Source: Acidimicrobiales bacterium (GTDB lineage Bacteria; Actinomycetota; Acidimicrobiia; Acidimicrobiales; CADCSY01). From it: a stretch of DNA of 43,004 nucleotides. Below are positions 1 through 17,600 of this stretch, piece after piece. The stretch is from assembly GCA_036275955.1 (NCBI GenBank), contig DASUCO010000070.1:1-43004 (forward strand), given 5' to 3'. Positions within the stretch are counted from its first letter, which is position 1; each line of letters begins with the position of its first letter. The notes under the pieces are model-generated. The model ran no database searches and had not been told where the DNA came from. It was given only the letters and a program-made list of their open reading frames with translations. The position numbers were made by a program, and so were the translations under genes.

Positions 1-3000
1 CCGCCAGGTCGTCCTGGTCGACGTGGCCATCGGCGACGATGCTCTCGAACGAGGCGAGCCCGGAGTCGAGCAGCGCGAGCAGCGAGACGTTGCCGCCGAC
101 CACCACGCCGGCCGCCGCGAGGTCGGCGGCGTTCACCGTCCCCGCCGTGGTGAGGGCGGATGCGGAGATGGAAACGTTGTTGAAGTCCTGCATGCGGAGC
201 AGGCCGTCCTCGGCCAGCTCCACCAGGTCGCCGAGGTTGTTGACGATCAGGTCGTCGGCGGCGACCAGGCCGGCATTGATCAGCTCGACGAGGTTGACCT
301 TCTGCACCAGGTCGCGCAGGTGCACCTCGTGCACGCTGATGAAGTTCCTGAGATCGCGGTCGGCATAGAGCACCGAGTTCTCGAGGTCGCGGATGTCGAG
401 GCCGATCGCCGGATCGGCGAGGTCGGTGGCGCGGACGAAGCCTTCCTTGATCAGCGCCGCGAGATCGACGCCCTCGAGGCCGAGTCCGGCCAGGGCGCGC
501 AGCCGGATGAAGGCCACGGGCTCGCCGTCGACATCCTGCTCGAAGGTCTTCGCGTCCGGGATGCTGACCGCGAAGCGCGCCTCGACGGCGGTCGCGTCGA
601 TGGCGATGTCGTTGAAGTCGAAGACGTCGATGAACTCGGTCTCGGCGTAGCGCTCGAGCTTGATGTTGCGGAAGAGCGGCGAGCCGAGGAGCGACGCCGT
701 ATTGCTCGCCGGGCCGAGCGGCACCGTGCCCCAGCGCACGATGTCGTTGAACTGGCCGCGCGTGAAGAGCGGGTTCGCCTCGAGCGTCGCCTGCTCGAAC
801 ACCTTGTCGACGAAGTCGTCGGCGGTGATCACGCCGGAGGCCACCAGGCGCGCGAGCGTCAGGTGGCTGTCGGCGAGCAGGTTCGCGAGGGTGATGCGCT
901 CGCTCGGATCGGCGGCCAGGTTGCCGTTCGCATCGGTGAACGGCAGATGTCCCTGGGCGAGGTAATGGTTGCCGATCACGTCGGACGCCAGCACGGCATC
1001 GAGCGAAACGACGAGGCCCGCCTTGAGCGCGCTTTCCGGAACCAGGCCCGCGGCGGCGAGCGCACGCAGCGTGACGACGCTGCCGTCGTAGAACCGGTCC
1101 GGGGTGATGAGGCCCTTCTCCACCACCGCGCTGAGGGTCGTAAGCCCGCTCGCGACCAGTGCCTCGACGTCCACCGGCCCCGTGCCGCCGAGGCCGGCGC
1201 CGGCGAGCGCCTTTTCGGCGATGGCGTTGGACGCCTTGAGCGCCGCGACGTCGACCGATTGGGCCGAAAGCAGCTGCGCGCTGCCAACCAGTCCCGCGCG
1301 CACGAGCTCGTGCAGCGTGACGAGCTGCAGCGCGAGCAGGTCGCGGATCGGAACGGTGTAGTCGGGCGTGCCCGCGATCAGGAGGCCGTTGTCGTCCAGC
1401 TTCTGCGCAGAGACGAGGCCGGACTTCAGAATGTCGTTCTCGGTGAGGTTGCCCGAGAGGTTGAAGTTCGCTTCCGTCAGCACGCCTTTGCCGACGAGGT
1501 CGGCGAGGGTCGTATGGCCGCCGGCGAGCAACGCCGACACCGGCACCCGGCCGGTCGCGGAGTCCGTGAGCGACGTGATGACCTGGGCTTCGAGCAGATC
1601 CGAGGCGAGGAGCGCCTCGCGCTCGACCGTGCCGAGCACGAAGAGATCGTCGAAGCGCAGCGTGCCGAGGTCGTCGACGAGGTCGTCCAGGTCGAGCAAC
1701 CCGACTTCCACCAGGCGCTGGAACGTGACGCCGGTGTGCTCGAAGAGCTTGTCGAGGGCGACGCGGTCGCCCTGCTGCACCAGGCCCCGCGATACGAGCT
1801 CGGCCCTGGTGGCGGCATCGAACTCGAACGTGTCGATGTCCTGCCGCGCGATGTCCTTGAGGTTGTCGTGCTTGAGGATGCCGAGCTCGGCGAGGTCCTT
1901 CAGCGACAGGTAGCCCGCGGCGATGAGCGCGGTCAGCTCGTGGCGCTCCGTCAGGCTGCGGTCGATGATCTTCGCGTCGAGCAGCTCCTGCATCGGCTTC
2001 GTGCCGAGCGGCGGCAGGTGCTCGTGCTTGACGATGTCGAAGTAGACGAGGTGGCGCAGCTTGATCGGGCTGTTTGCCACCAGCTGGTCGAGGTCGATCA
2101 CGCTGCCCGGGCCGATCAGGCCGCCGTGCGCCTGGATCTGCGTGAGCAGGCTGCTCGCGTTCGCCAGCAGGTCGGAGGACTGGATCTTGTCGAGCGCGAG
2201 GCTCGCGGGGCCGAGCACCTCGCTCGAGAAGAGCTCGGCCAGGTCGGCGATGCCGCTGTCGATCACGTCGAAGATCGGCACGTCGCGCAGCGTCAGGTCG
2301 CCGTCGGCGAGCAGGCCGCCGGTGGCGAGCGCGGCGAGGTCCGTAAGGCCGGAGTCGAGCAGCTCCTGGAGGTCGATGCCGTCCGTGGCGAGGTCTTCCA
2401 CCGCGAGGAGCCCGTCCGCGACGAGGTCGGCGAGGCTCACCAGCTCCTCGCCGAGCAGGGTGGCCAGGCTGAGGTTCGATATCTGCAGCGCCGAATTCGG
2501 GATGAGCGAGTGCTCGATCAACTCGCCGAGGCTCATCAGCCCCGAGTTGACCAGCTCATGCAGGGAGACGTTGCCGGCTTCGTCGACCAGGTCGCGATGG
2601 CGCAGCGCGAACTCGGTGACCCGTTGCGTGCCCGTCAGCTGCGCGACGGTGAAGGCGAGATCCTCGAAATCGGCGAGCGCGGCGACGCCCTCTTCCACCA
2701 GCCGGTCGAGCGTGACCCTCGCGTTGCCGAGCAGCGTGTCGAGCGGAACCAGGGTCGAGGGGTCGAAGTCCGCGGCGCCCAGGAGGTGCTCATCGAGGAG
2801 CTGGCCCAGCGTGATGCCGGCGCCGTTGACCAGCTGCTCGATGAACACCAGCGTGTGCGCGGCGAAGTCGCTGGCGTCGACCAGGCCCGCGTCGATCAGC
2901 TGCTGCAGCGTGGCGACGCCGTTCTCCAGGAGATCGCCCAGCCCGATCGCGTCGACGGCGAGATCCGCGGCGTCGAGCACGTTCGTGCTGAACAGCTCGT

Positions 3001-3620
3001 CCAGCGTCGTCAGGCCCGAGTCGAGGAGCTGCTGGACCGGGACGAGGTCCACTTCCTGAATGAAGGTGGTGAGGTCGACGCCGAAGTCGGCGAAGCTCTC
3101 CGCGATGCGGTTGATCTCCTGCACGATCGGCAGGCCGCTGGCGATCGAGTTGAGCGTGACGTACTCGGCCTCGACGAGGTCGGCCAGCCGGGCGAGGCCG
3201 GCGCGCAGCAGGGCGTCGAGGTCGACCTCCTCCTCGTCGAGCTCCTCCTTCTCCAGCGCCTTGCGGCCGATGATGCCGGAGCTGACGAGCGGCGCGAGGT
3301 CGATCTTGTCCCAGTCGATCACCGAGTCCAGGGTGATGAGCCCCATGTCGATGAGCCGCGCGATGCTGAGGAAGCCCTCGTCGATCAGCCTGTCCGGGTC
3401 GACCACGTCGCCCACCACCACCAGGCCTTCGCGCACCATCGCCTCGAGGTCGATGCGGCCGAGCGCGTCGAGGTCGTCGAGGCTGAAGCGGTCGAGGTCC
3501 ACGGTGAAGGCGAGCGGGACCTTGATTTCCTGGGTGGCCGGGTTGTAGGTGACGCGCTGCCCGTCGGCCAGCAGGCCCTTGCGCGAGAGCTCCGCCACCA
3601 GGTCCTGCAGCGAGCGCAGG
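1..3620 (-). repeat. Array of at least 26 degenerate helical-hairpin motifs (h-h-x-x-G-h-x-[ST/D]-h-x-[DEQ]-h) that runs off the window
   Basis: Translated examples: LIDMGLITLDSVI, LLRAGLARLADLV, LLDSGLTTLDELF, LLENGVATLQQLI, LIDAGLVDASDFA, LVNSGLMSLGELI, LVADGLLAVEDLA, LIAAGYLSLKDLA, LLAGGHTTLADLV, LVASGVITADDFV, LIKEGFVRATDLA, LINAGLVAADDLI, LAEDGLLRMQDFN, LLDSGLASFESIV. Spacing is irregular (13-35 aa). I verified nt 2..420 and 3181..3300 codon by codon. Confidence 0.6.
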
Positions 3621-6600
3621 CGCTCGAAGTCGATCTTCGACAGCACCGCGGCGTCGAACGCCGGGCCGAAGTCCAGGGTGCGGGCGAGGTCGCTGTCGAC
3701 GAACGGGATGGCGAGGTTGAAGCCGCCGGTGGCGGTGTAGTTCTCGAGCCAGTCGTTGCGCAGCCGCAGCAGCTTCTGGTGGAAGTCCTCGACCGTAAGG
3801 CTGGTGAAGCCGGCGAGGTTGGACAGGTTCGTCGGGACGAAGCTCGGCGTCACCGTGCCGCGGCCGCGGCCGACGAAGAAGTCGCCCGTGATGCTGATGC
3901 TCGCCGCCGCACCCTGGTTCACGTCCTCGCCCGCGAGCCAGGCATAGAGCGGCAGCGTCATGTTGAGGTTGCTCACCGAGTTGGCGAGCGGGTCGTACAC
4001 CAGGCTGTACGCCGAGCCGAAGCCGACATCGACGTGCATGTCCATCGTGATCGAGCCCTTGAGCCCGCGCGGATGGCCCGCCGTCGCCTCGAGGTCGCCG
4101 ATCATCACCGGGATGACGAGGTTGCTGGCGCTCGCCACGACGTCGAACTCGAGCTGGTCGAGGTCCCACTCGGCTTTCTGGTGGCCGGCGGCCCAGTCGA
4201 CCTCGAAGGCGAAGTCGAACTCGGTGTCGAAATCGGCGTTGATCCTGACGAACGCCGGGCCGACGCCCTGCACCGGCTCGGACAGCCCGACCGGCACCTG
4301 CTTCACGTAGTCGGCGTCGCCCTCGAAGTCGAGGCCGAAGCCGGTGATCCTGCCGCCGCGCTTGATGAACGTGAGGTCGACGCGGTCGCCGACGCCCTCG
4401 CCGGCGAGCACGGTCGGGAACCAGTTCGCCTCCAGGTAGTCGAGGAAGCCGGCGATGCTCGCGCTGCCCTCGCCGTCGAGGTAGGCGGTGATGTGCGTGC
4501 CGAGGTCGAGGTACGCCGAGATGCCGAACAGCTCGTCGAGCGTGACGTCGGTCGCCGCGATCTTGTCGGCGGTGACCGCCGGGTTGGCGGCGAGGAAGTC
4601 CGCTTTGAGTCCGTCGATCTCGGCGGCGAGCGCGGCGAGCTGCTGCTCGAGCGGCTCGGCCTCGACGCCGGAGACCTGCTCGAGGTCGAGTACGCCGAGG
4701 CGCGTCATCACCTTGCGCACATCGGCGCGGCCGGCCGAGACGCTGCTGCCGCCCTGCGTCTTGAACTCGGCGCGCCCGGTGGCGCTCATGCTGCCGGTGA
4801 GGCTGGTGGTGACGCCCGAGAAGTCGAGGGTCGAGCCGCCGCCGGCGTCGGTGATGCGGTCCTGTCCCCAGGCGCTGCCGAAGGCGTAGAAGTCGCCGCC
4901 GGTGCCGCCGTCGAGCCGGTCGTTGCCGCCGCCGCCGGAGAGCACGTCGTTGCCCGCGCCGGCGATCAGCGAGTCGCCGCCCGCGCCGCCGCTGAGCTGG
5001 TCGTTGCCCGCGCCGGTGGTAAGGCGGTCGTTGCCGGCGCCGCCCACCGCGACGATGCGCTGGGTCGAGCGGCTGCCGTCCAGCGTATCGACGCCGTCGC
5101 CGCCGTCGAACTGGGTCTCGCCCGAAGAGCCGCCGGTGCCGGTGATGAGCGTGTCGTCGCCCGCCTCGCCGAGGAACTCTATGGTGATGCCGCTCGTCGC
5201 CGAGGCGTCGATCTTGTCGTTGCCGATGCCGCCGTGCGCGACCACCTTGGTCACGCCGGAATAGGTGTGGCTCCAGCCGCCCTTCGCCGGGTCGCCGAAG
5301 GTGACCGTGAGCGCGCCGCTACCGCCGGAAAGGACGAAGGTCTCGGGTCCGTCCTCCACGGTGAACGTCATGCCGGCGGTGACGCCGCCGCCGAAGAGCG
5401 GATTGCGCTGCTCGGCGCGGTCGCCCATGTTGAGGGTCAACGTGCCGCCGGCCTGCTCGCCGAGCTTCAGCAGGTCGGCCTGCGGCGCGTTGTACTCCCA
5501 GTCGAAGAGGTTGAACCTGAGCAGGTTCATGTACCAGGCGTGGCCGTGGTCGTCCTCGTCGAAGCCGACCGCGTCGGCGAATACGAAGATCTCGGCGTCT
5601 AGCGAGGCGTCGATGTTGACGAGATTGAGCAGGCCGCCGAGCGAGCCGAGGTCGAAGAACGGTTCGTCGTCGGGCAGCGTGGCCTCGTCATCCTGCTCGG
5701 GCGGCGGCGCGGTGACGTCCTCGGTCTCGTGCTGCGCCATCAGCAGCAGCTCCGAGACGCGGATCTTGCCGTCGTGGACCAGGTCCATGAGGTCGAAGTC
5801 CGCGTTGAAGACGAGCTGCCCGCCCACGCCCACTTCGGCGGCCAGGGCGTCGAACGACGCCTCGATGCCGAGCGACATCTCGACGCCGAACTCCGGCGCG
5901 TCGACGCCGGAGTTCTGCACGCCGTTGTCGCTCACGTAGAAGCCGTCGAGCGCGTCCCAGTAGTTGTCCGACGCCATGGCCTTGCGGATGCCGAAGGTGT
6001 CGTAGCCGAACGTGAGATCGGCGAAGGCCTTGAAATTGCCGACGGCCGTCACGTCGAAGCTGAGGAACGAGATGACCGGCACCGGAATGCTGAAGAGCAG
6101 CTGGCTCAGCCGGACATCCACCTCGAAGAGCGGCATCTCGTAGGTGAAGAGGTCCGCCTCGCCGCCCGAGAGCAGCTGCGCCCAGTTCTGCAAGTCGAAG
6201 AGGTGCAGCTCGAAGCCATCGCGCGGCGTGGCGCTGGCGCGCAGCTCGCGGCCGCTGCGCTCGCCGCGCCCTTTGTCGCGCAGCTCCTCGAGGTGCGAGG
6301 CGAGCTGCGTCGGCGCGCCGCCGCTCGCGCCGCTCGCCGTGGCGCGCCCCGTCTGGGCATTGAACGACAGGTTGCCGAGCGGAATGTACGTCTCGCCCGG
6401 CTCGTCGACGCTCGCCTGGATGGCGAGCACCGTGTCGACCAGCTCGAGCATGTTCTGCGCGGCGTAGACGAAGTTCCAGTTGTTGTCGCGCCCGCTGGCG
6501 AGGTCGATGATGTCCATCAGGTCGACCGTGCCGTTGTCGTTCACGTCGAACGCGTCGTGCACCAGCTGCATGACGTCGTCGTCGGGGCCCGGGACCGGGA

Positions 6601-9600
6601 TGATCTCGAAGGTGAGCGCATCGATCACCGGCTCGATCGGGCGCAGCGTGTCGCGGATCTGGGCGGCTATCGGCAGCAGGAAGTCCGCCACCGCGGAGCC
6701 GAGCTCGATGCGCAGGTTGTTGAGGCCGATCGACGGCGCGGTCACCGCTTCGCCGAGCTCCCAGTGCCAGTCGAGGTCGAGGTCGCCCTTGAGCTTCGGC
6801 AGCAGGCTCGCCTGCCTCTCGCCAGCCGCGGTGTCGATCTCGAGGCCCTTGTTGACCTCGAGCGTGAGGCCGAGGGTCACGTCGGCGTCCACTGTCAGGT
6901 CCAGGTCGAAGGCGCTGCCCGGCCGCGACAGCGCCTCGTCGAGCGTCAGGCGGCGGTCGGCGCCGCCATCGAGGTCGAGCGTAAGCGCGCCTTCCAGCGT
7001 GCTGGGTGTGCCGCCATCGTCGGCGGTGACGTCGAAGAAGAGGAAACTGCCGCTCGCGCTGAACGGGTCGGGCACGTCGGGCGTGGAGGTGTCACCGTCG
7101 AGGAAGGCGCTGATCTCGACGCCGATCTCCGCCTCGTCTTTGGTGGCGACGTAGAAGCCGTCGCTCAGGCTGATGCCGAAGCCGAGGTCGAAGTACCACT
7201 CCATGACCGCCGACAGGCCGCCGTCCACGTCCAGGCCGAAGCCGGGCAGGTCGAGGTCGAGCGGGATGTCGAAGCCTTCGCTGAAGATATTGCCGCCGAG
7301 CTTGAGATCGAACTGCAGCGAGTCGGCGTCGACCGGCACGGTCTGCCCCGGCTCCCAGGCCTGGATGACGGTGCCGTTTTCGCGCCGCCACTTGATGCCG
7401 ATGTCGCTGATGTCGACCGCGCCGTCGCCGTTCGAATCGCGCAGGATGCCCAGCCCGCCCGACCCGCTGCGCAGCACGCCCCACAGCACGTCGCGGATCG
7501 CCTCGATCGGCGTGGTCTCGTCGAAGTACTGCTGCAGGTCCTCGAGCAGGCCGGTGCGGATGCCGCTGACGAAGTCGCCCATCGCGGCGAGGTCGTCGCC
7601 CACGAGCGGCAGGTCGGCCGCCCAGCCGGAATCGAGCACGTCGCTCACCGTGCCGAGCAGGAAGTCGATGCCTTCCAGCATGAAGGACGGATCGTTCAGC
7701 ATGGCGAGCAGCGAGAACTCGCCGAACAAACGCTCGAAGGTGCCGACGACGTCCGGGAAGTCGATCACCACCGGATCGGCGCCGCTCGACGTCGCGCCGT
7801 TCACGAAGAAGTTGTAGAGCTCCTCGAGCCCGTTGGCGCCGAACGCCGGGTTGGTCGAGACGCTGAAGCTGCCGAGTGGCAGCGTGGCGTCGCCGTTGAC
7901 GATGGAGAGCGGCAGGTCGACGCTCATGCGACCCTGCAGGTCGAACTCGAGCGCGTCGCCGATCGGGTCGCCGACCTCGTAATCCTCGGTGAAGGCGACC
8001 GTGAAGGTCGCCATGTCGGAGGTGGTGGCGGCGTTGCCGTCGCCGTCGAAGGCGACGCGGCCGCCGGTCACGCCGGCCGAGATCGGGCCGATGTCGAAGG
8101 CGAGCGAGAGGTCGGTGCCGAGCACCTGCGCGCCGACCTGCAGGCGCGTGCCCTTGCCCGTGGTCTCGTCGTAGCGGCGCAGCTTCGCCACCGGCGCGCC
8201 GCCGGTGGCGAGCGGCAGGAGGCTCAGCTCGACCGCGGCGTCGAGGGTGACCTGGGCGCCGAGGTGCAGGTTGCCCTGCGTGTCGAGCGCGAGGCGGTCG
8301 CCGAGGATGTCGAGGTCGCCGAGCGCCGAGAGGTCCAGGCCGTCCATGCCGGCGAGCGAGGCGAGGTCGAAGCTGAACTGCACGTCCTCGGAGAACGAGC
8401 GAGTCCACTCGAAATCGACCACCAGCGCCATCGTCTCGAGGTCGAAGTCGATCTCGAGGGCCGAGGCCGGCAGGCCGAGCGCCTCCTCGATCGCGAGCTC
8501 GACCGCGCCGAGCGCATCGGGCGCCACCTGCCCCGCCCGCTCGACGCGCGCGGCGAAGTCGTCGATGAAGTCGACCGCGTCGGCGAGCGAGCGGTTGATG
8601 ACCGGGATCGGCTGGTTGAAGTACTCGTTGCCCTCGAGCGAGTCGGTGACGAACTCGACGATGCCCTGCAGGCCCGACACCACCAGGGAGTAGCCGACCA
8701 TCACCTCGTAGTCGACGGCAGCGCCGGCCTCGAACATCCGCACGGTGATGAGCGGGTCGGTCCCCTCCAGCGTGAAGTCGCCGGCGCTGAGGCTCATCAA
8801 CTCCAGGGTCGCCTCGGACTCTTCCAGCGTGGCGACGAAGCTGCCGTCGATGACGAACTCGTCGCCGATCTGCAGCCCGCCGGAGATCATGAGCTTCAGG
8901 TACTCGCCGGCCGCGATCACTTTCGCCGGATCGGCGTCGAGCGGCGTCACGGTCACCGCCTCGCCGGTGGAATTCAGCTCGAAGTCGACGGTGGCGCTCG
9001 TCAGGGAGAGCGGCAGGCTGCCGAAGTCGATGCCGTCCGGCACGGTGAGCGTGCCGAAGCCGGCGATGCCCTCGTCGGCGATGCGCAGCGTGCCGCCGCC
9101 CTGCAGCGTCATCAGCGTCGAGCCGCCGACCGCGATGGGCACGGAGATCGAGTCGGCGTCCAGCGTGATGACCGAGTGGCCGCTTTCGTCGACCACGCGC
9201 AGCCCGACATCCTGGCCGGTCACCGTCTGGCCGAGCACCTCGAGCCCAAGCTGGCCCGCGGTGACCTGGAAATACGGGTTCGGACCGGCGAGCGTGACCG
9301 ACTCCTGCGTGCCGTCGCCGTCGCTGTCGATGCTGAGCACGACGTCCGGCCCGGACATCGTGCGCACCTCGATGGCGAGGTCCGTTGCCGAGACGCTCAC
9401 CTGCGGCAGGCCGGTCAGCGCGACGCTGTCGAAGCTTGCCTTGCCGGCGACGCCGTCTTCGTTGATCACCAGCGTCCCGGCGCCGCCGCTCGCCGTCAGC
9501 CGCGTGCCGCCGGCGCTCAACGTCGTGGACAGCCCGGAACCGGTGAGGCGCAGCTCGGCCGCCGTCGCCTCGAGGGCGAGGTTGCCGCCGAGCGACTGGC

Positions 9601-12600
9601 CGAGCACATTGATCGCCACGTCCTCGCCCGAAAGGCGCAGGTACGGGCCCGCCTGGACGTCGACGCTGATCGTGCCGGTGCCGACCGTGGCCTCGAGATC
9701 GACCGCCGCGCTCGTGCTGTTCAGCTCGACGCCGAAGCGCCCTTCGAGGGAGAAATCGGCGCCCGCGGCGGCCGCGACCGTCGCGGAAAGGCTGCCGGCG
9801 ATGCCGTCGGTGGTGATGAGGAAGGCCCCGGAAGCATTCGTCACTTCGACCAGCGCCTCGCCGCCCGCCGAGAGGGTCATGCCGGCGTCGTACGCGCTGA
9901 CCACCACGACGGGGCTGCCGCCCGCCGTCGAAGCCTCGAGCGAGAAGTTGCCGGAGAGCGCCTGCGCCGAGCCGCCGGCAGGCGTATAGGTGAGGGTCGC
10001 CTCCTCCGCCGCAACGCGCACGTACGGCCCGGCCGCGAGATCCAGGGTCTGCGGCCCGCTGCCGAGGTCGATGGTCTCGTGCTGGTGCGTGCCGGTGGTG
10101 TTCACCGCCACGGTGAAGTCGCCGGTGAAGCTCACCGAGCTGTGCGTCACCGCGATGTCGGCGCTCGCCTGTCCGAAGAAGCCGCTGCTGGTAAAGACGA
10201 AGGTGCCATCGCCGTTTTCCACCGAAACGGTCGGCACGCCGAAGTCGATCGCGACGCCGTCGGCCTGCAGCGTGACGATCGGGTCTTCGTCCTCGCGCAC
10301 GTCGGCGCGCAACGCGAAGGCGCCGCGCAGAGTGCGGCCGCTCGCGAACGTGAGGCCGCTGCTTCCGGTGCTGACGTTCACCTGGGCGAAGCGCGTCCCG
10401 GCGCGCGTGTCGAAGGCGAGCGCGGCATTCGCCACAACGAGCGCCATGTCGGCGATCTCGGGCCCCTGGGCCAGCGTGACGTCGAACCCGCCCCACAGCC
10501 CTTCCGCGGCGATGTTGAGCTCGCCGGCGCCCGTGAACTCGGCCACCCGCGCGGCGCCGGCGCGCAGGGTGTAGACGAGATCGGCCACCGAGAGGTGCAC
10601 CGTCGTGGCGTCGCCGGAATTCACCTGCAGGGTAAAGACGCCGTCGAGCTCCTGCTCGAGGGCAGTGAGCTGGCCGTCGACGATCAGGCGGTAGAAGTCC
10701 TGCCCGCCGGTCCTGACCAGGTTCACCGGCGTGCCGTTGATCAACGTGACGTCCTCGTCCATGGTGTTGAACTCGACCGTCACCGTCGTGCCGTCGAGCT
10801 CGACCCCATCGAGGTCGGGGCCGTCCTCCAGCGTCATGGACATGCTGGCGGCGACGCCCGTGGACTTGATCTGCAGTGCCCCGCTGCCGGAAAGTCGCGC
10901 GAAGCGCCAGCCGTCGGAGGTGAGGTCGAGGCGCGTGATGCCGGCGTTGACCGAGATGACGGTGTCGTCGCCGTCGACCACCAGCAGGTCGAACGTGCCC
11001 TCGAGCTCCTGGTCGAACGCGGTCAGGCTGCCCGCGATCGTTACGCCGAACACGTTCGCCACGCCGGTGGTATCGACGTGCAGCGTGGCCGTGCCCTCGA
11101 TGTCGAGCCCCTCGATGTCCGGGCCGGCGAGGAGATCGATGCTGAACGAGCCGGCGATGCCGTCCGCCGTGTAGACGAAGTCGCCCGTGCCGTTGCCGAA
11201 ATGGGCCACCCGGGTGCCGCCGGCGGTGAGCTCGAGCGTGTCGACTTCGACGTGGATCAGCGTCTGCGCGCTCTGGGCCGAGCCGCTGCGCTGGAGCACG
11301 AACCCGCCCTCGAGCGTCTGCCCCATCGCCACGAGAGTGCCGTCCACCGCGACGGTGATGTCGGGCGCGTCGCCGCTGAACACGTCTTCCGTGCTGACGG
11401 CGACGTGTCCGTCGCCGTGGAGCTCGAAGTCGGCGAAGCCGGTGATGTCGGCGGCGAGATCCAGCGAAGCGCTGAATGTGCCTTCCGAGGTGGCGGTGAA
11501 GACGCCGCTCACCGGCGTGGTGCGATCGACGACCGCGGTCAGAACGCTTTCGGTGATCTGCCCGGTGGAGGACAGGCCGACCTTTGCATTCAGGGCCATG
11601 GTGCCGTTCTGCAGCGCGACGTTGGCGCCGATCTCGTCGAACGAGATATCGAAGCCGAGGCCCGACACGCCGACGTCGACCCCGGCGTCGAAATCGTGCA
11701 CCTGCAGGAAGAATTGCCCGCCGCCATCGAGGCCGAACGACAGGTCGAGCGCGACGGTGGCACGGAAGTCGACCTCCGCGCCGGTGAAGTTGATGCCGAG
11801 GAGGGGCGCGCTGCCCGGATCGAGCTCGACGCTGTCCTCGCGCGTGGCGGTGAGCGCGACGCGATAGTTGGGCGAGACCAGGTCGTACGTGCCGATCACG
11901 CTCAGGACGTCGATCGTGAAGCCGCCGACCTCCGTGCCGTCGAGGCCCTCGAGGAACTTGGTGATGCGCGTCTGCACTTCCAGCACCGCCGCGTTCGGAT
12001 CGGGAATCGTGGCGTCGATGGAGTCGGTCAGCGTCGACTGGATGGCGCCGTCGATGTCGGCCAGCTGACCGATGCTCGCCTGCTCGGTCGTCGTGGTGCT
12101 TGCGGTGGTGAGGAGCTCGGCGCTGCCGCCCTCGTCTGCGGCGAAGAAGGAATCGAGCTCGGCGGCAGCGAAGGCCATCAGGCCCATCGCTTCCGGATCC
12201 TCCTCGGGCAGCTCGTCGCCCGCCGGCGCCTTCACGAAGGGCAGCTTGATCGCGTATTGGACTGCCTCGCCGACGGCCTCGAACACGGCCTTCACCAGGC
12301 CGCCGCCGCCCTTCAGCTCCGTGGCGGTGCTGGTCGTGAGCTGGGAGGCCTGCACCACGTCGAGGTAGTAGCCATCCGCCGCCACGCGCGGGACGAAGGC
12401 CAGGTTGGTGCCGATCGCGGTGCCGAGGAAGTACTGGAAATTCCCGCTGATGGAAGTCGAGTCGATGATCTTGAAGCTGTCGCCGACGGTCGGCACGAAG
12501 CCGTTCCACGACACGATCTGCAGCCGCCCGCCGAGCTGGACCGGGCCGCTGACCACGAACTGGTCGTGCGATCCGCTGGTGTTGCCCGGGCTCGTGCCGC

Positions 12601-13852
12601 CGATCTCGATCACCACCGTCTGCTCGGGCGCGACGGTGAGCGAGGTCAGGTTCTCGATGTGCGGGCTGCGGCCGCCCGGGTTGAGGGCCAGCGCGTTGGT
12701 GATGTCGACCGGGCCGGCATAGGCGAGCGCCTCGATCTGCGTCTCGACCGCGTCGGGCAGCGCCTCGAAGAGGTCGAAGCCGGCGAAGCCGTTCGCCTGC
12801 AGCCGCGCTTCGAGCGTATCGGCGGAGATGATGAAGTCGTCCCACGAGCCGCCGCCGGTCGGCGTGTTCGGGAAGTCGACGACGATGAGGCTCGACTGCA
12901 GCCCGGCCGCGTCGAGCGCCGCCACGTCGGTCGGGCCGTCGCCAGGCTCCGGCAGGATGAGGATCGCCTTCCAGGTGTGCGCCGGCGCGGTGACGATGAT
13001 GCCGTCGCCGCGGTCGAAGGTGACCGCGGTGCCGCTGTCGTCGAGGAGCGTGCCGTAGCCGCCGGCGTAGATGTAGAGCTCGTTATTACGCTCCAGGACC
13101 AGTTCGCGCGAGAAGTCCTCCAGCACCTTCCACGCCCCGCGGTTCAGGTTCGAGTGCTGCGGGACGATGTTGGTCATGTACGAGACCGCGATCGAATCGT
13201 CCTCGGTGGCGCGCCGGTCGTCGGCCGGCGCCAGGTGGCCGCGGTCGTAGGTGCTGCCGTACGAATCGCCCGGGTTGGCGTCCAGCCCGGCGCCCGTGAG
13301 GATCGGGTCGGCGCGGAAGCTCTTGCGGGCGAAGTTGCCGCCGAGCCAGCTGCTGTTCAGCTGCCAGGCGGCCCAGTTCGGGTTCTTGGTCGAGTCGTTG
13401 TACGAGATGTCGTACTGGTCGCGCTCGATGAGGAAGTTGTTCGGGCTGAGGCCCGCGTCGGTCGGATTGCCGAACAGCAGGTGATCGGCGCCGGCGACGG
13501 CGGCGAGCGCGGTGAAGCCGAAGTCGAGGATTTCTTCGTCACCGGCGGGATCGCCGGCGAGCGGCGCGTAGGCGTCGAGCTCGACGAACCCCGTGTCCGA
13601 CGGCGTGGCGGCCGAGCTTTCTGCGTGGCTGCGCAGGACATCGGCGATGACTGCGGTACTGGCGCTCGGCTCGTCGACGAGCGCGGCGACCGGTGTCTCG
13701 GTGAGGTCGTCGGAGGCGGGCGCCAGGTCGGCCGACAGCAGCAGCCGCGGCTCGAGGCTTTCGAAGCGCATCTTGCGCTTGAAAACGTGGCGCGCGGCGC
13801 GCCCCGGGCGGGCGAAGAGCCGCCGGAAATAGCTTTCGGTTGGGGCGTTCAC
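1..13852 (-). CDS. Giant secreted repeat protein, 3'-partial (at least 4,590 codons in window). Contains a LEPR-XLL N-terminal motif, an Endonuclease_NS domain, beta-rich repeats, an internal RTX block and a C-terminal helical-hairpin repeat array. Not listed in the supplied ORF track.
   Basis: The minus frame (codon top positions = 1 mod 3) is open from TAG 14155..14153 down to the left edge. The track reports only start-to-stop ORFs, so this one is invisible. Hand translation gives GTG13852[29 protein letters not shown]13771[21 protein letters not shown]... By hand count, GC3 rises from about 68% upstream of 13852 to about 86% or more downstream. Recognisable protein motifs occur along the whole length. 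The start is ambiguous (GTG 13852 or ATG 13771). The plus-strand TAG at 5600..5602 reads CTA (Leu) on this strand. Confidence 0.85.
   Translation of the reverse strand, partial: [4617 protein letters not shown]
4880..5245 (-). repeat. RTX / hemolysin-type Ca2+-binding nonapeptide repeats (GGxGxDxUx), internal position
   Basis: Direct translation gives [11 protein letters not shown]...[14 protein letters not shown]...[12 protein letters not shown]...[67 protein letters not shown]. Confidence 0.85.
9000..11900 (-). repeat. Degenerate beta-rich repeat region of the left megaprotein (family unknown)
   Basis: Motifs recur in hand translation: G(Q)xLxGxFxLxxxxxG ([71 protein letters not shown]), DGIAG(S/K/F) and AGPY(V/L)R(V/L). 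Spot checks at 9541..9660 confirmed the translation. Confidence 0.4.
12722..13480 (-). other. DNA/RNA non-specific endonuclease domain (Endonuclease_NS, Serratia nuclease/NucA/EndoG family)
   Basis: Translated motifs appear in the family order: [26 protein letters not shown], then YDRGHLAP (His codon 13237..13235), then [23 protein letters not shown] (Asn codon 13171..13169), then HTWKAILIL, then VVDFPNTP...[28 protein letters not shown]. These parallel the Serratia nuclease blocks DRGHQAP / SNITPQ..LNQGAWARLE / YWKVIF / FDQNTP...VTVDEIEKRTG. Confidence 0.8.
13727..13756 (-). other. LEPR-XLL N-terminal signature ([10 protein letters not shown])
   Basis: Hand translation gives [19 protein letters not shown], preceded by a basic stretch. 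This matches the named LEPR-x-LL motif found at the N-termini of large repetitive proteobacterial exoproteins. Confidence 0.8.
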
Positions 13853-14186
13853 GGCCTCGGCGCCGCGCGCGCGAGCGCACGCGATCCGACGTGGACCGCC
13901 GACGTGTTCTGCAAGCAGCTGCGCAGGTGCACCTGCGTCATCCTCCCAATTTCGATCGAGGATGAAGAAGCGCTGCCGAAGGATGCCTAGGCCGAGGGCA
14001 AGCAGGCGCACGCGCGCCGCGCGTGGCCCGGTTTCCTCGGAGTTTGCGGTCCTCCCCGCTCCCCACCAAGATTCCGCGGAAAGGATAGTCCTCTGACATT
14101 TCTTTTGAAAGTCACGCGTTCGCCTAGCCGACCGGCGGCAACGCGATACGGGCTATCCAATCCACTCACCATCTAATCAAGCACTT

Positions 14187-14203
14187 GCCGCCGGGACGGC
14201 GGC
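14187..14203 (-). terminator. Candidate stem-loop terminator downstream of the DUF3467 gene
   Basis: GCCGCCG-GGA-CGGCGGC (7-bp GC stem, 3-nt loop) lies 42 nt after the TAG stop. On the transcribed strand it is followed by AAGUGCUUGAUUAG, which is only weakly U-rich. Confidence 0.3.
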
Positions 14204-14244
14204 GGGGCGATGCTTGACTTTTTCGAATCGCCGGAGTCCCGGCG

Positions 14245-14571
14245 CTACTTCTTCCCCGCGCCGCCGCTGGTCTGCAGCTCGACGTTGAGCGCGCCGAAGC
14301 GGTTCTCGTACTCCTTCACCACGCCGTTCAGCAGCAGGCTCAGCCGCTTCGCCGCGAACGGGCTGATGATGATGCGGTCGGTGAGCTGGATCGTCACTTC
14401 CTTCTGGCCGCGGTTCCACGCCTGGTTGACGCCGAACAGCAGGACCACCTCCTCACGCGTGCTGCTGACGTTGCACACGTTCGCGTAGGCGCTCTTCATG
14501 TTGGAGTCGTCCCACTTGATCTTGGTCCCCTCGATGGAGGTTTCTGCCGGCGCTTCAGCCTTGGTAGCCAT
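14245..14571 (-). CDS. DUF3467 family small protein (108 aa)
   Basis: This uses the internal ATG (14571) of track ORF 14245..14634. It is preceded by AACGGGAGAGAGC-ATG, a GGGAGAG Shine-Dalgarno sequence. The product is MATKAEAPAETSIEGTKIKWDDSNMKSAYANVCNVSSTREEVVLLFGVNQ...RIIISPFAAKRLSLLLNGVVKEYENRFGAL. It matches the DUF3467 pattern Y(A/S)N....S..EF.LDF......R(I/V).(M/L)SP..AKRL...L...(I/V)..YE..FG.(I/L). Confidence 0.8.
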   Translation of the reverse strand: MATKAEAPAETSIEGTKIKWDDSNMKSAYANVCNVSSTREEVVLLFGVNQAWNRGQKEVTIQLTDRIIISPFAAKRLSLLLNGVVKEYENRFGALNVELQTSGGAGKK

Positions 14572-14602
14572 GCTCTCTCCCGTTGATTGTCTGGTACTCG
14601 AG

Positions 14603-14627
14603 GCGCCGCGCTCCCTACGCGCGGCGC
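14603..14627 (-). terminator. Perfect 9-bp GC stem-loop between the giant gene stop and the DUF3467 start (terminator, attenuator or processing hairpin)
   Basis: GCGCCGCGC-TCCCTAC-GCGCGGCGC (plus-strand reading) lies 41 nt downstream of TGA 14670..14668 and 31 nt upstream of ATG 14571. There is no U-tract. Confidence 0.3.
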
Positions 14628-14667
14628 GCGGCACGCACTTTAACCCAAGGCGCCCGCCACAAGGTCG

Positions 14668-17600
14668 TCATTCGTCGGTTTCCAGGAAGTCGACGAGCGG
14701 CCCGGAGCTTTTCTGGCGGGCCGCCCCCTGGAGGGCTTGACCCAATGGACCAAAGTCCTTAAAGGACTGCATCCACTCGATCACCCGCGCCGGCCCGGCG
14801 GCCGCGGGCTTCGCGGCATCGCGCGGCTTTTCGGACAACCGGTCTTTGTAGGCGTCGTGCCAGTCGACCAGGCCGGAGAGCCGTTCGCGCAGCTCGAACA
14901 GCGCGCTCGGCACGCCGCAGTTCCATTCGAGCGTCGACGATTCGACCAGCACGTCGGCGCCGCCGCCGCCGCGCAGCTGGTCGCGACCGTCGCCGCCGAC
15001 GAGGAGGTCGTCCGCCGCCCCGCCGCGCAGGTCGTCGTTGCCGGCGCCGCCGAAGAGCTGGAGGTGCGCCACCACCACGCCCGAGCCGTCGATCTTGTCG
15101 TTGCCCGCGCCGGCGTCGACCAGCGTGGACATGGTGAGGCCGTCCAGCTCCACGTGATCGTTGCCGCCCAGCGCGGCGACGTCCAGCGACGTGATGCCGG
15201 AGTAGTAGCGGGTCTCGCCGTTCACCGTGACGCGCACGATGCCGCCCTCGTCCTCGACGATCTCGATCTTGTCGTTGCGCTCGGTGCCGCGCACTTCCAG
15301 CGTGCGCTCCGATTGCGCCACTTCAAGCTGCCAGGTCTGCTCGGCTGCCCCGCCGTTGCCGTCCGACACCCGCAGCGCAAAGCTGTAAATCCCCGGCGCC
15401 GAAGGCACCCAGTGCAGCTCGCCCGTGCCCGCGTCGATCACCGCGCCCGCCGGCCCTTGCAGCAGGCTATAGGTGAGCGTGTCGCCATCGACATCGACTG
15501 CGTCCGCGTCGTACCGGTAGGGCGCCGCGGCCGGCGCAGCGAGGCCGCCGATGCGCACGCGCAGCTCGTCGTGCTTGTGCTTGCCGTCGTCCCACGCAAG
15601 CATCAGCGCGCCGCTCGCGTCGAATTGCGCGCGCACGCGATCGGCGCCGTCGGCATTCGCCTCCGCGATGGAGAACGTAGCCGCGTCCTTCTTCTTGTCG
15701 CCCTTCGCATAGAACGCGTACAGCGCGCCCGCCTCCAGCGTGAGGGTGCGGCTGGTGCCGTCGCGGTCCGCCTTGCCGAACGCCACCTGCGAGCGCGCGA
15801 GCGCCGCCGCGGCGTACGCCGGGTCGCCGGCGTCGATGCCGCTCACCGTGCCCCAGGTGTCGTCTACGCGATAGACACCGAATTCCGCCGGCGCGTCCTT
15901 CTCGCGCCCGAGGAGCGCGAAGCTCACCGTGCCGCCCGCCGCGCGGAACACGCTGTCCAGGTTGGCGCTCGAGCGCGGCGGATCGATGACGAGCGACGTG
16001 AGCGGCAGGGAGGTGAACTGCGGCCCGTCGTTCACACCAGTGATGGTGACCGTCACCGTGGCGCTCGACGTGGCGCCCGCCGAGTCCCGCATCGTGTACG
16101 TGAACGTGTCGAACGCGGTCTCGCCCACGGCGAGATGCTGGAAGTCGTCGCCGACTTCGTAGCGCACGCCGCCGCCGTCCGCGTCGATCGTCACCGTTCC
16201 GACAGTTCCGGCGAGATCGAGCGCCACCACGCTACGCGTGTCGCCGTCGTCTGCGTCGGTGTCGTTCGCCAGCACGTCGATGTGCACGCCGTGGTCTTCG
16301 TCCGTGCCGGCGACGTCGGCCTGGGCCTCGGGTGCATCGTTCACCGCACTCACGTCAATCGCCACCACATCGGTGTCGCTCAGCGCCGTCCCCGAACCGA
16401 ATCCGCCCAGGTCGTCGGTCGTGATCGTCAGGCTTGCCGCGCCGTTGAAGTTCAGGCCCGGCATGTACGTAAGACCATTGAGCGCGGCGTTGATCCCGGC
16501 GAGCGTGCCGCTGAAGGTCATCGCCGCGTCACCGCTGCCGTCGCCGCTCGTGAACGTCAGGCCGGCTATGGATCCAAGCGTGAGCTGTCCGTTGCCCGCC
16601 GCCAGCGTCACCTGGACAACCTCATCGCCCAGGACAGCGTTGTCGGCGTCGTCCACGTCCGCCACCGCGATCGCGTTGCCGTTGGCCGCAGAGAACACAA
16701 GCGCCGAGTCTTCGTTGGTGAACTGGGCGCCCGGCACGGTGTTCACCGGCGCGTCGTTAACAGGACCCACGGTGACCATCACCACGTCGGTATCCGTGAG
16801 CGGCGTGCCGAGGCCGAAGTTGCCCAGGTCGTTGGTCGTGATCGTCAGGCCCGCCGCGCCGTTGAAGTTCAGGCCCGGCGTGTAGGTCAGGCCGTTCAAC
16901 GCGGCGTTCACCCCGGCTAGCGTGCCGGTGAAGGTCATCGCGGCGTCGTCGCTGCCGTCGCCGCTCGTGAACGTCAGGCCGGCTATGGATCCAAGCGTGA
17001 GCTGTCCATCGCCGGCCGCGAGCGCCACCTGCACGACCTCGTCGCCCAGGACAGCGTTGTCGGCGTCGTCCACGTCCGCCACCGCGATCGCGTTGCCGTT
17101 GGCCGCAGAGAACACAAGCGCCGAGTCTTCGTTGGTGAACTGGGCGCCCGGCATGGTGTTCACCGGCGCGTCGTTCACCGGGAGCACGGTGATGGACACG
17201 CTTGCGTTGGCGCTCAGCGTGCCATCGCTGACCCGGTACTCGAAGCTGTCGATGCCGTTGAAGTTTGCGTGCGGCGCGTAGACGAACGAGCCGTCCGCAT
17301 GGAGCGCGAGCGTGCCGTTCGCAGGCCCGCTGACGAGAATCGCGCTGAGCGTGTTGGCCGGCAGGTCCGGGTCGCTGTCGTTGCCGAGCACGCCGCTTAC
17401 CGGCACGCTCAGCGTGCCGTCCTCGTCGAGGCTGTAGCTGTCGTTCTCCGCCAGCGGCGCCAGGTTGACCTCGTTGACCGTGACGGTGAGGGTCTCCTCG
17501 TCCCAGAGGTTGGGCGCACCGTCGTCCGTCACACGCACGGTGAAGGCATAGGCGCCGGGCCCTTGCGCCTCGGTCGGCGTCCAGGCGAACGCACCGGCTG

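What the first reader, a model, noticed from the sequence alone, without database searches (positions are those of the whole stretch)
1..3620. Array of more than 1,200 aa of degenerate helical-hairpin motifs resembling pseudo-HhH (RadA/Rad51-N, NusA-AR type) modules on the same protein as the nuclease
At least 26 copies of h-h-x-x-G-h-x-[ST/D]-h-x-[DEQ]-h occur at irregular 13-35 aa spacing (LIAAGYLSLKDLA, LLAGGHTTLADLV, LIKEGFVRATDLA, LINAGLVAADDLI, LLDSGLTTLDELF and others). The array is still running at the window edge. The motif closely matches the second hairpin of (HhH)2 domains, such as RAD51 'LEEAGFHTVEAVA' and NusA 'LAARGVCTLEDLA'. Those domains bind nucleic-acid backbones non-specifically. 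Long HhH arrays have a precedent in Methanopyrus topoisomerase V. A nuclease head combined with a poly-HhH-like tail would be a DNA-grasping fibre. I know of no described family with this architecture, and the HhH assignment is only pattern-level.
Basis: inference. Interest (0 to 1): 0.7.

Follow-up and report, generated by a model that had tools for sequence, protein, structure and literature searches.

The report
New 32-residue solenoid repeat, not HhH
The repeated motifs are real, but they are pieces of a regular 32-residue coil that builds a long, strongly acidic rod in a rare family of giant secreted bacterial proteins; the coil matches no catalogued family or solved fold and is unlikely to hold DNA.

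Summary
Window 2..3484 encodes about 1,160 aa of motif array at the visible C-terminal end of a protein of at least 4,590 aa, and the array is still running at the window edge. That protein carries an N-terminal LEPR-XLL leader, a NucA-type nuclease and RTX repeats.

The motif is 30 to 100 times over chance. Its "irregular" spacing has a simple cause: the motif occurs at two sites within one 32-residue unit (consensus xGxVxLDDLLDSGLVTLAELVEEGLLGAADLA, 22 units found by profile, about 36 coils by length).

AlphaFold2 with 26 homologues gives pLDDT 88.7. Each coil is a short strand, two helices of 6-7 residues and one helical turn. Foldseek finds nothing in the PDB (best E 3.4) or BFVD. Pfam, NCBIfam and PDB sequence searches find no family. 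HhH-type models give only sub-threshold, motif-level hits.

The array has net charge -119 (pI 4.1), and relatives' arrays are just as acidic. Only 46 related protein clusters exist among 1.84 billion. None of them, nor three further loci, has a nuclease. Every complete N-terminus has the LEPR leader, and short versions sit between FG-GAP repeats.

My reading: a previously uncatalogued extracellular solenoid rod or spacer, not a poly-HhH DNA-grasping tail.

The parts
2..3484 (-). The motif array: open-frame aa 3557-4717, about 36 coils of a 32-residue repeat, running off the window's left edge
   Evidence: The unit profile finds 22 units with gaps of about one or a few divergent units. Consensus. 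Periodicity at 5.41, 11 and 32 aa. Motif enrichment. Net charge -119, pI 4.1, no Cys.
2183..3055 (-). The slice that was modelled (aa 3700-3990), about nine coils; unit starts at aa 3734, 3766, 3799, 3831, 3859, 3891, 3923 and 3955
   Evidence: AF2 with the 26-sequence alignment A2: pLDDT 88.7, pTM 0.71. Each coil is strand(3), helix(6-7), loop, helix(6), loop, 3-residue helix, bridge. No Foldseek match in PDB or BFVD.
3485..4660 (-). Conserved pre-array domain (aa 3165-3556) that precedes the array in relatives too
   Evidence: Colinear BLASTP match of P0001 183-1732 to aa 3165-4717 at 38% identity. Present in P0008, P0014 and P0016 upstream of their arrays.
4868..5185 (-). RTX calcium-binding nonapeptide block (GGxGxDxL repeats)
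   Evidence: Pfam HemolysinCabind E 3.2e-8. NCBIfam RTX models. 27-nt tandem periodicity at 4891-5044.
5183..12355 (-). Long acidic middle region, rich in beta-strand pattern, with no family match
   Evidence: No Pfam hits. Hydrophobic period about 2.1 aa. pI 4.05. The part at aa 1849-2395 is homologous to P0001 and P0005 regions that lie after their arrays.
12752..13441 (-). NucA-type DNA/RNA non-specific endonuclease domain (DRGH motif at 13235-13246)
   Evidence: Pfam Endonuclease_NS E 3.3e-35. Anabaena NucA (1ZM8, 2O3B) E 4e-41, with the RGH core and the PQ..N.NR..W block aligned.
13703..13771 (-). Probable start codon (13769-13771) and LEPR-XLL N-terminal leader (MRFESLEPRLLLSADL)
   Evidence: NCBIfam NF012209 LEPR-XLL, 31.3 bits against a cut-off of 17. 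The same motif heads P0001, P0005, P0034, L004 and L005.
14245..14571 (-). Small DUF3467 gene directly upstream of the giant gene
   Evidence: Sequence read. PF11950 annotation. The same adjacency is seen in the distant relative L004, 65% identity.

Best explanation
Window 2..3484, minus strand, encodes a previously uncatalogued solenoid repeat.

The unit. It is about 32 residues long and made of three sub-segments of about 11 residues. Each sub-segment follows the same pattern: a Thr/Ser/Asp followed by a short amphipathic helix and a Gly. I read the Thr/Ser/Asp as helix N-caps and the Gly as C-caps; that is inference. In the model each unit folds into one short beta-strand, two helices of 6-7 residues and a single helical turn. 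Successive units stack into one continuous coil.

What it builds. About 36 coils are visible here, and relatives have 38-52. Together they form a long, cysteine-free, strongly polyanionic rod.

The protein. The rod is one module of a giant extracellular protein. That protein has a LEPR-XLL leader, a NucA-type nuclease next to the leader, a middle region of about 2,400 aa with a beta-type hydrophobic period, RTX Ca2+-binding repeats, and then the rod.

Likely role. Most likely the rod is a structural stalk or spacer that gives the protein length and rigidity. This would parallel the Ig-like extender arrays of RTX adhesins. The nuclease is a lineage-specific addition at the other end of the protein.

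Shown: the repeat, its period, its rarity, its acidity, the confident predicted coil, the lack of any family or fold match, and the domain partners.
Inferred: the rod shape, the extracellular location, the spacer role and the lack of DNA binding.
For: - Motif enrichment: 8 observed against 0.08 expected, and 14 against 0.25.
- Periodicity at 5.41, 11 and 32 aa.
- 22 units found by the unit profile, with a consensus.
- AF2 with the alignment: pLDDT 88.7, pTM 0.71, three of five models above 85, and the same strand-helix-helix-turn pattern in every coil.
- No family or fold match: Pfam and NCBIfam, PDB by sequence and by profile, Foldseek against PDB with best E 3.4 and TM at most 0.13, and against BFVD with best E 0.5.
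- Rarity: 46 clusters at E below 1e-3 among 1.84 billion representatives.
- Conservation: orthologous, colinear arrays at 37-57% identity.
- Long arrays of 1,200-1,650 aa in P0001, P0005, L004 and L005. All are acidic (-209 to -323) and have 0-1 Cys.
- Extracellular context: LEPR-XLL or Planc_extracel leaders on every complete N-terminus; RTX repeats; modules of about 6.5 coils inserted between FG-GAP repeats; a neighbouring gene of at least 9,444 aa made of adhesin-type Ig, cadherin and PKD domains.
Against: - The structure is a prediction from a shallow alignment of 26 sequences. Two of the five models scored lower (75.8 and 66.9). The single-sequence run failed with pLDDT 39.6.
- I could not inspect coordinates, so the rod shape, curvature and rise per coil are not measured.
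- About a third of the array does not match the unit profile. Gaps of 109-142 aa may be insertions or other domains.
- No secretion genes, C-terminal signal or anchor lie within the window, so location and topology are inferred from domain content.
- 'Spacer' is a default role. A binding function of the acidic surface is not excluded.
- Sub-threshold hits to HhH-type profiles recur.
Confidence: 0.55

Rival explanations
1. The array is a chain of pseudo-HhH modules of the Rad51-N, NusA-AR or topoisomerase V type. It binds nucleic-acid backbones non-specifically and feeds or tethers DNA for the nuclease head.
For: - The motif is a helix / Gly-turn / helix element.
- Weak sub-threshold profile hits to HhH-type families: AF1548-like_C in 5 of 26 members (best 4.8e-4), DNA_pol_lambd_f in 4 of 26 (1.6e-4), HHH_5 in 2 of 26 (0.059), SAM_1 in 1 of 26.
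- An idealised concatemer scores 34.9 bits on AF1548-like_C.
- An intact-looking nuclease is on the same polypeptide.
Against: - No natural slice reaches any HhH family threshold. The concatemer score has no single significant stretch.
- The AF2 model is a continuous 32-residue coil, and no HhH, SAM or topoisomerase V structure appears among the Foldseek hits.
- Net charge is about -3 per coil, and K or R does not exceed 16% at any unit position.
- The nuclease is absent from all 46 relatives and from L003, L004 and L005.
- Relatives of the nuclease are ordinary 400-1,100 aa enzymes without the array.
- The array also occurs inside FG-GAP proteins.
Confidence: 0.06
2. The solenoid is a binding scaffold rather than a passive spacer. 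Like LRR or other solenoids, its long repetitive surface would bind a partner such as a protein, a cationic polymer, a mineral surface or a cell-wall component, making the giant protein an adhesin.
For: - Solenoid repeats commonly serve as binding surfaces (established knowledge).
- The neighbouring gene and the FG-GAP hosts are adhesin-like.
- A discrete cassette of about 6.5 coils inserted in FG-GAP proteins looks like a functional module.
- Surface positions vary while the hydrophobic core positions are the best conserved.
Against: - No ligand is indicated by any data.
- Arrays of 40-50 coils are far longer than typical binding solenoids.
- Outside the core, cap-like positions and general acidity, no variable-position pattern stands out in the unit profile.
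Confidence: 0.22
3. The array is a polyanionic cation-binding module. Ca2+ or another divalent cation would bind its many Asp/Glu residues and drive folding outside the cell, as in RTX beta-rolls. This would act as a secretion ratchet or an ion store.
For: - About 16% Asp plus Glu, and no Cys.
- RTX Ca2+-binding repeats lie on the same protein, just upstream.
- The acidity is conserved in all relatives.
Against: - The conserved Asp/Thr/Ser positions (16 and 30) sit where helix N-caps are expected, not in a recognisable Ca2+ loop.
- There is no GGxGxD, EF-hand or Dx[DN]xDG pattern in the unit.
- Foldseek hits to EF-hand proteins are insignificant, E above 3.
Confidence: 0.12
4. The continuous coil is an AlphaFold artefact of repetitive sequence. 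In reality the region would be a string of small independent helical bundles or be partly disordered.
For: - The alignment is shallow (26 rows, Neff about 3).
- Two of the five models are weaker.
- The single-sequence prediction failed.
- About a third of the array matches the unit profile poorly.
Against: - The 32-residue register found by AF2 coincides with sequence periodicity measured independently and with unit boundaries conserved in orthologues.
- 189 of 291 residues have pLDDT of 90 or more.
Confidence: 0.08

Closest known systems
(HhH)2 domains and HhH arrays (Rad51 N-terminal domain, NusA AR1/AR2, RuvA domain II, Methanopyrus topoisomerase V)
   Same: Short helix, Gly-containing turn, short helix, with a Ser/Thr/Asp starting the second helix. 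Tandem arrays exist in topoisomerase V. Sub-threshold profile hits to AF1548-like_C, DNA_pol_lambd_f and HHH_5.
   Different: Unit of 32 residues forming a translational coil, rather than a roughly 50-60 residue five-helix domain. A beta-strand in every unit. No G-h-G hairpin. No Pfam, hhalign or Foldseek match. Strongly acidic rather than neutral or basic. Extracellular context.
Extender (stalk) regions of giant RTX adhesins (LapA, SiiE, MpIBP type)
   Same: Giant, acidic, Cys-free extracellular protein with RTX nonapeptides. A very long tandem array of one small unit makes up much of its length. This is the closest functional analogy for the proposed spacer role.
   Different: Those extenders are Ig-like beta-sandwich domains of about 100 aa. 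Here the unit is a 32-residue alpha/beta coil. The N-terminus is a LEPR-XLL leader and not a retention module. The C-terminal T1SS signal cannot be checked because it lies off the window.
Leucine-rich repeats and other alpha/beta solenoids (ribonuclease-inhibitor type LRR)
   Same: Leu-rich unit of about 30 residues with one short strand plus helical segments, stacked in register.
   Different: No LxxLxLxxN signature or Asn ladder. Three helical segments per coil. No LRR Pfam hit and no LRR structure among the Foldseek matches.
mTERF repeats (about 30 residues, two helices plus a 3-10 helix)
   Same: Similar unit length, three short helical elements per unit, and a 'L..lG' motif at the end of the first helix (from memory).
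   Different: No mTERF Pfam hit. The only mitoribosome-complex chain in the Foldseek list is insignificant (E 4.5, TM 0.11). mTERF has no strand and is basic.
LEPR-XLL (NF012209) / Planc_extracel (PF07595) giant proteins
   Same: The window protein passes the NCBIfam cut-off for the leader. All complete relatives carry it.
   Different: That family is defined only by the 24-residue leader. It says nothing about the array, which is present in only a tiny subset.

Membership tests
HhH / (HhH)2 superfamily (Pfam HHH, HHH_5 and related) | Significant profile match to an HhH-type family model | tested here: not met
   No HhH family at E of 10 or less for the window slices. Across 26 family members the hits are only sub-threshold (HHH_5 0.059). 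The idealised concatemer reaches 34.9 bits on AF1548-like_C by summing partial hits, with no single significant stretch.
HhH / (HhH)2 superfamily | Hairpin signature h-x-G-h-G (or G-h-G) between two helices of about 7-8 residues | tested here: not met
   The unit consensus junctions are D-S-G-L-V-T and E-E-G-L-L-G. Gly13 is only 39% conserved. After Gly24 there is a single helical turn.
HhH / (HhH)2 superfamily | Five-helix domain with two hairpins related by pseudo-twofold symmetry | tested here: not met
   The AF2 model is a continuous 32-residue coil with a strand in each unit. There are no HhH, SAM-like or RuvA-like hits in Foldseek against the PDB. I could not inspect coordinates directly.
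HhH / (HhH)2 superfamily | Non-specific binding of the nucleic-acid backbone | not testable with these tools
   Only indirect evidence: net charge -119 over 1,158 aa, pI 4.1. Relatives range from -10 to -323.
Topoisomerase V-like HhH array | Tandem (HhH)2 domains of about 50 aa attached to a DNA-processing enzyme and recognisable by profile or fold | tested here: not met
   The period is 32 aa, not about 50. No topoisomerase V chain appears in PDB sequence, profile or fold searches. The enzyme is about 3,090 residues away and absent from relatives.
Leucine-rich repeat | LxxLxLxxN/CxL core with an Asn/Cys ladder; LRR profile match | tested here: not met
   The consensus lacks the motif. No LRR Pfam hits. 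No LRR fold hits.
LEPR-XLL domain proteins (NCBIfam NF012209) | N-terminal motif of about 24 residues scoring above the curated cut-off | tested here: met
   31.3 bits against a cut-off of 17, at residues 2-23 of the protein that starts at window 13771.
DNA/RNA non-specific endonuclease (PF01223; NucA / Serratia nuclease) | Profile match above threshold, with the DRGH catalytic His and the downstream metal-binding Asn | tested here: met
   122 bits against a cut-off of 23. Alignment to NucA (1ZM8, 2O3B) at E 4e-41, with the RGH core (DRGH here) and 'PQ..N.NR..W' conserved. Activity was not tested.
T1SS-secreted RTX adhesin or exoprotein | RTX nonapeptide repeats; acidic, Cys-free polypeptide | tested here: met
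   HemolysinCabind E 3.2e-8. pI about 4.1 and 0% Cys in every region.
T1SS-secreted RTX adhesin or exoprotein | C-terminal secretion signal and a linked ABC transporter / MFP / TolC | not testable with these tools
   The C-terminus lies beyond the window edge. The window holds only the two giant genes and DUF3467.

The most novel reading that the evidence does not exclude
The array is the founding example of an undescribed protein-repeat class. Its unit is a 32-residue coil of three ~11-residue sub-segments: one short strand, two helices of 6-7 residues and one helical turn. These coils stack into polyanionic rods of 40-50 coils. Such rods define a very rare clade of LEPR-XLL giant exoproteins and also occur as a cassette of about 6.5 coils inside FG-GAP proteins. 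The class has no counterpart in Pfam, NCBIfam or the PDB. In this lineage the rod has been joined to a NucA nuclease, giving a 'nuclease on a stalk'.
Probability: 0.5. Interest if true: 0.65.

Novelty: new variant of a known kind. Interest (0 to 1): 0.55.

Why it matters
Solenoid repeats are a small, well-charted set of architectures. They are valued both for understanding giant surface proteins and as scaffolds for protein design. A confidently predicted repeat of 32 residues with no match in Pfam, NCBIfam or the PDB would add a new class.

It would also give a first structural handle on the almost unstudied LEPR-XLL giant proteins. In addition, it shows how a secreted nuclease can be grafted onto such a scaffold.

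For the scan itself, the result corrects an attractive but wrong functional reading (poly-HhH DNA binder). It also shows that the 'irregular' motif spacing hid a regular unit.

Tried and rejected
- The + strand ORF 23..5602 was rejected as an antisense shadow. Its translation is rich in R, E, V and D, and homologues support only the minus frame.
- The word-indexed homologue search with the 1,200-aa slice found nothing. With alignment A2 it found only 4 proteins, because the 8,000-candidate prefilter was saturated. The exhaustive HMMER search was needed.
- Single-sequence AF2 failed, pLDDT 39.6.
It worked with the narrower A3 but gave only 2 loci.
- PDB sequence and profile searches returned nothing. 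The idealised concatemer hit only a de novo designed protein, which I take to be a compositional match.
- The Ribosomal_L27A hits (25.5 bits on one slice; 6 of 26 members) have no significant stretch on the window slice and are probably motif resemblance; I did not inspect the alignments.
- mTERF and LRR were considered because of the unit length. No profile or fold support was found.
- Literature searches for LEPRLLLSA, LEPR-XLL, PF07595 and AF1548 gave nothing on this repeat. One paper treats Planc_extracel as a signal-type N-terminal motif (PMC10952558).
- An intramolecular DNA-mimic inhibitor of the nuclease was considered. I set it aside because relatives have the array without any nuclease.
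Full report
**1. What is at the coordinates**

The window is 68-73% GC and full of long antisense 'shadow' ORFs. That frame is open for 4,717 codons from 14152 to 2 and runs off the left edge.

The likely start is the ATG at 13769-13771 (MRFESLEPRLLLSADL). This gives a protein of at least 4,590 aa whose C-terminus lies outside the window. A 3,140-bp farmland-soil contig (L002) is 97% identical over window 12549-15513 and carries the same gene start.

**2. The protein**

Domains, from the N-terminus:
- A LEPR-XLL leader: NCBIfam NF012209, 31.3 bits against a cut-off of 17.
- A NucA-type DNA/RNA non-specific endonuclease: Pfam PF01223, E 3.3e-35; Anabaena NucA structures 1ZM8 and 2O3B, E 4e-41, with DRGH and the downstream Asn block conserved.
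- About 2,400 aa with a beta-type hydrophobic period of about 2.1 aa and no family match.
- An RTX nonapeptide block.
- A conserved pre-array domain.
- The array.

Every region is acidic (pI 4.05-4.3) and free of cysteine.

Upstream lies a 108-aa DUF3467 gene. Beyond it is a second giant gene of at least 9,444 aa. It is built from CARDB, Big_9, He_PIG, cadherin-like and PKD domains plus RHS, matrixin and RTX hits.

Yes.
- The strict motif occurs 8 times in the last 1,207 aa against 0.08 expected from shuffling. It occurs 0 times in the other 3,383 aa.
- A mildly relaxed form occurs 14 times against 0.25.
- A 22-residue profile finds 21 copies below E 0.03 and 27 at E of 1 or less.
- The array begins at aa 3557 (window 3484) and is still running at the edge.

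**4. The motif is part of a regular 32-residue unit**

- Hydrophobic autocorrelation peaks at lag 11 (0.34), then at 22 and 32. The Fourier spectrum peaks at 5.41 aa, which is 32.5/6.
- The AF2 model segments the sequence into units that start at aa 3734, 3766, 3799, 3831, 3859, 3891, 3923 and 3955. Their lengths are 32, 33, 32, 28, 32, 32 and 32.
- A unit profile finds 22 units between aa 3557 and 4717. The gaps are about 30-42 aa (one divergent unit) or 109-142 aa.
- The consensus is xGxVxLDDLLDSGLVTLAELVEEGLLGAADLA.
One is around Gly13 (LLDSGLTTLDEL type). The other is around Gly24 (LIDAGLVDASDF type). This produces the apparently irregular spacings.

**5. Predicted structure**

- Single-sequence AF2 failed, pLDDT 39.6.
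- With a 26-row alignment of homologous segments (A2), AF2 gave pLDDT 88.7 and pTM 0.71. 189 of 291 residues were at 90 or above, and three of five models were above 85.
- Every coil shows the same pattern: strand(3), helix(6-7), loop, helix(6), loop, 3-residue helix, beta-bridge.
- Foldseek found no significant match in the PDB (best E 3.4, TM at most 0.13) or in BFVD (best E 0.5).
- PDB sequence and profile searches were empty.
- I had no access to coordinates, so I could not measure overall shape or local hairpin geometry.

**6. Relatives**

- The exhaustive HMMER search of 1.84 billion cluster representatives found 46 proteins at E below 1e-3 and 16 below 1e-30.
- The best, P0001 (3,469 aa), is colinear with aa 3165-4717 at 38% identity. 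Its array keeps matching the unit profile for about 430 aa beyond the point that aligns with the window edge.
- A Burkholderiales MAG fragment (L001) is 57% identical and colinear.
- Two metagenome loci hold giant ORFs of at least 4,044 and at least 4,431 aa, with arrays of 1,221 and 1,653 aa.
- All complete N-termini (P0001, P0005, P0034, L004, L005) carry the LEPR/LEDR leader.
- None of the 46 proteins, nor the giant ORFs in L003, L004 and L005, contains a nuclease.
- Conversely, relatives of the nuclease are ordinary 400-1,100 aa secreted enzymes with PKD, LTD or Big_2 domains.
- A cassette of about 6.5 coils lies between FG-GAP repeats in P0023, P0024, P0027, P0028 and P0040.
- The long arrays carry net charges of -84 to -323 and have 0-1 cysteines. 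The short FG-GAP cassettes carry -10 to -32.

**7. The HhH hypothesis**

For:
- The element is a helix / Gly-turn / helix.
- Weak hits recur to HhH-type models: AF1548-like_C in 5 of 26 members, DNA_pol_lambd_f in 4 of 26, HHH_5 in 2 of 26.
- An idealised six-unit concatemer reaches 34.9 bits on AF1548-like_C, with no single significant stretch. That AF1548's C-terminal domain is of the HhH/Rad51-N type is my recollection, not a tool result.

Against:
- No natural slice passes any threshold.
- There is no G-h-G signature.
- The fold is a continuous coil with a strand in each unit.
- The array carries about three negative charges per coil.
- The partners are extracellular modules, not DNA enzymes.

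I read the resemblance as shared helix-capping grammar (C-cap Gly, N-cap Ser/Thr/Asp) rather than homology. That is inference.

**8. Most likely function**

The most likely role is a long, rigid, polyanionic solenoid rod that serves as a stalk or spacer in a giant exoprotein. This would be functionally analogous to the Ig-like extenders of RTX adhesins.

In this lineage a NucA nuclease has been added next to the leader. It would then sit at one end of a very long fibre. This is inferred from architecture and context.

A binding-scaffold role (0.22), a cation-driven folding module (0.12), an AF2 artefact (0.08) and DNA binding (0.06) remain as rivals.

**9. Novelty**

- Solenoid repeats in giant surface proteins are a known kind.
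- This particular 32-residue unit has no entry in Pfam (2025), NCBIfam (2026) or the PDB (2026), and no paper was found.
- AlphaFold DB could not be searched.
- I rate it a new variant of a known kind. There is about an even chance that it is a new repeat class.

Noticed in passing
window 14671-43002 (-): A second giant gene of at least 9,444 aa, open to the right edge. It holds CARDB, Big_9, He_PIG, cadherin-like and PKD arrays plus RHS-repeat, Peptidase_M10 (matrixin, E 5e-6) and RTX hits. Two giant exoprotein genes lie in tandem.
   Followed up: partly
window 14245-14571 (-); L004 2298-2693: A 108-aa DUF3467 gene sits directly upstream of the array-bearing giant gene. The same adjacency, at 65% identity, occurs in the distant relative L004, whose DNA is 56% GC. 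It is not seen in the available flanks of L003 or L005. It may be a dedicated partner.
   Followed up: partly
window 23-5602, 5729-13990, 19657-39741 (+): Very long + strand ORFs of 1,859, 2,753 and 6,694 aa. I read them as antisense shadows of the minus-strand genes in high-GC DNA; this was checked by translation only for the first. They could mislead gene callers.
   Followed up: yes
window about 6967-8608 (-) (open-frame aa 1849-2395); P0001 2494-2829; P0005 2474-3064: A conserved module lies before the array in the window protein but after it in P0001 and P0005. Either the module order is shuffled or the super-modules recur. L004 and L005 start a second array about 1,500 aa after the first.
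   Followed up: partly
P0023, P0024, P0027, P0028, P0040: A cassette of about 206-215 aa (about 6.5 coils) of the same repeat is inserted between FG-GAP repeats of other large extracellular proteins.
   Followed up: partly
window about 12344-12673 (-) (open-frame aa 494-603); P0005 201-310: A short conserved segment follows the leader or nuclease ('...GTLQV.L.N.F.P..GD.F....' type). It is shared at 39% identity with P0005 and is visible in P0001 and L005. It has no Pfam match.
   Followed up: no
L002 (ERZ1761208, JX_farmland contig): A farmland-soil metagenome contig is 97% identical to window 12549-15513, so a close strain exists in soil. The nearest named relative of the array is a Lake Mendota Burkholderiales MAG.
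   Followed up: partly
L003 8234-21563: The P0007 homologue lies in a run of same-strand, back-to-back gene calls on a 198-kb contig. It looks like one giant gene broken by frameshifts or assembly errors.
   Followed up: no
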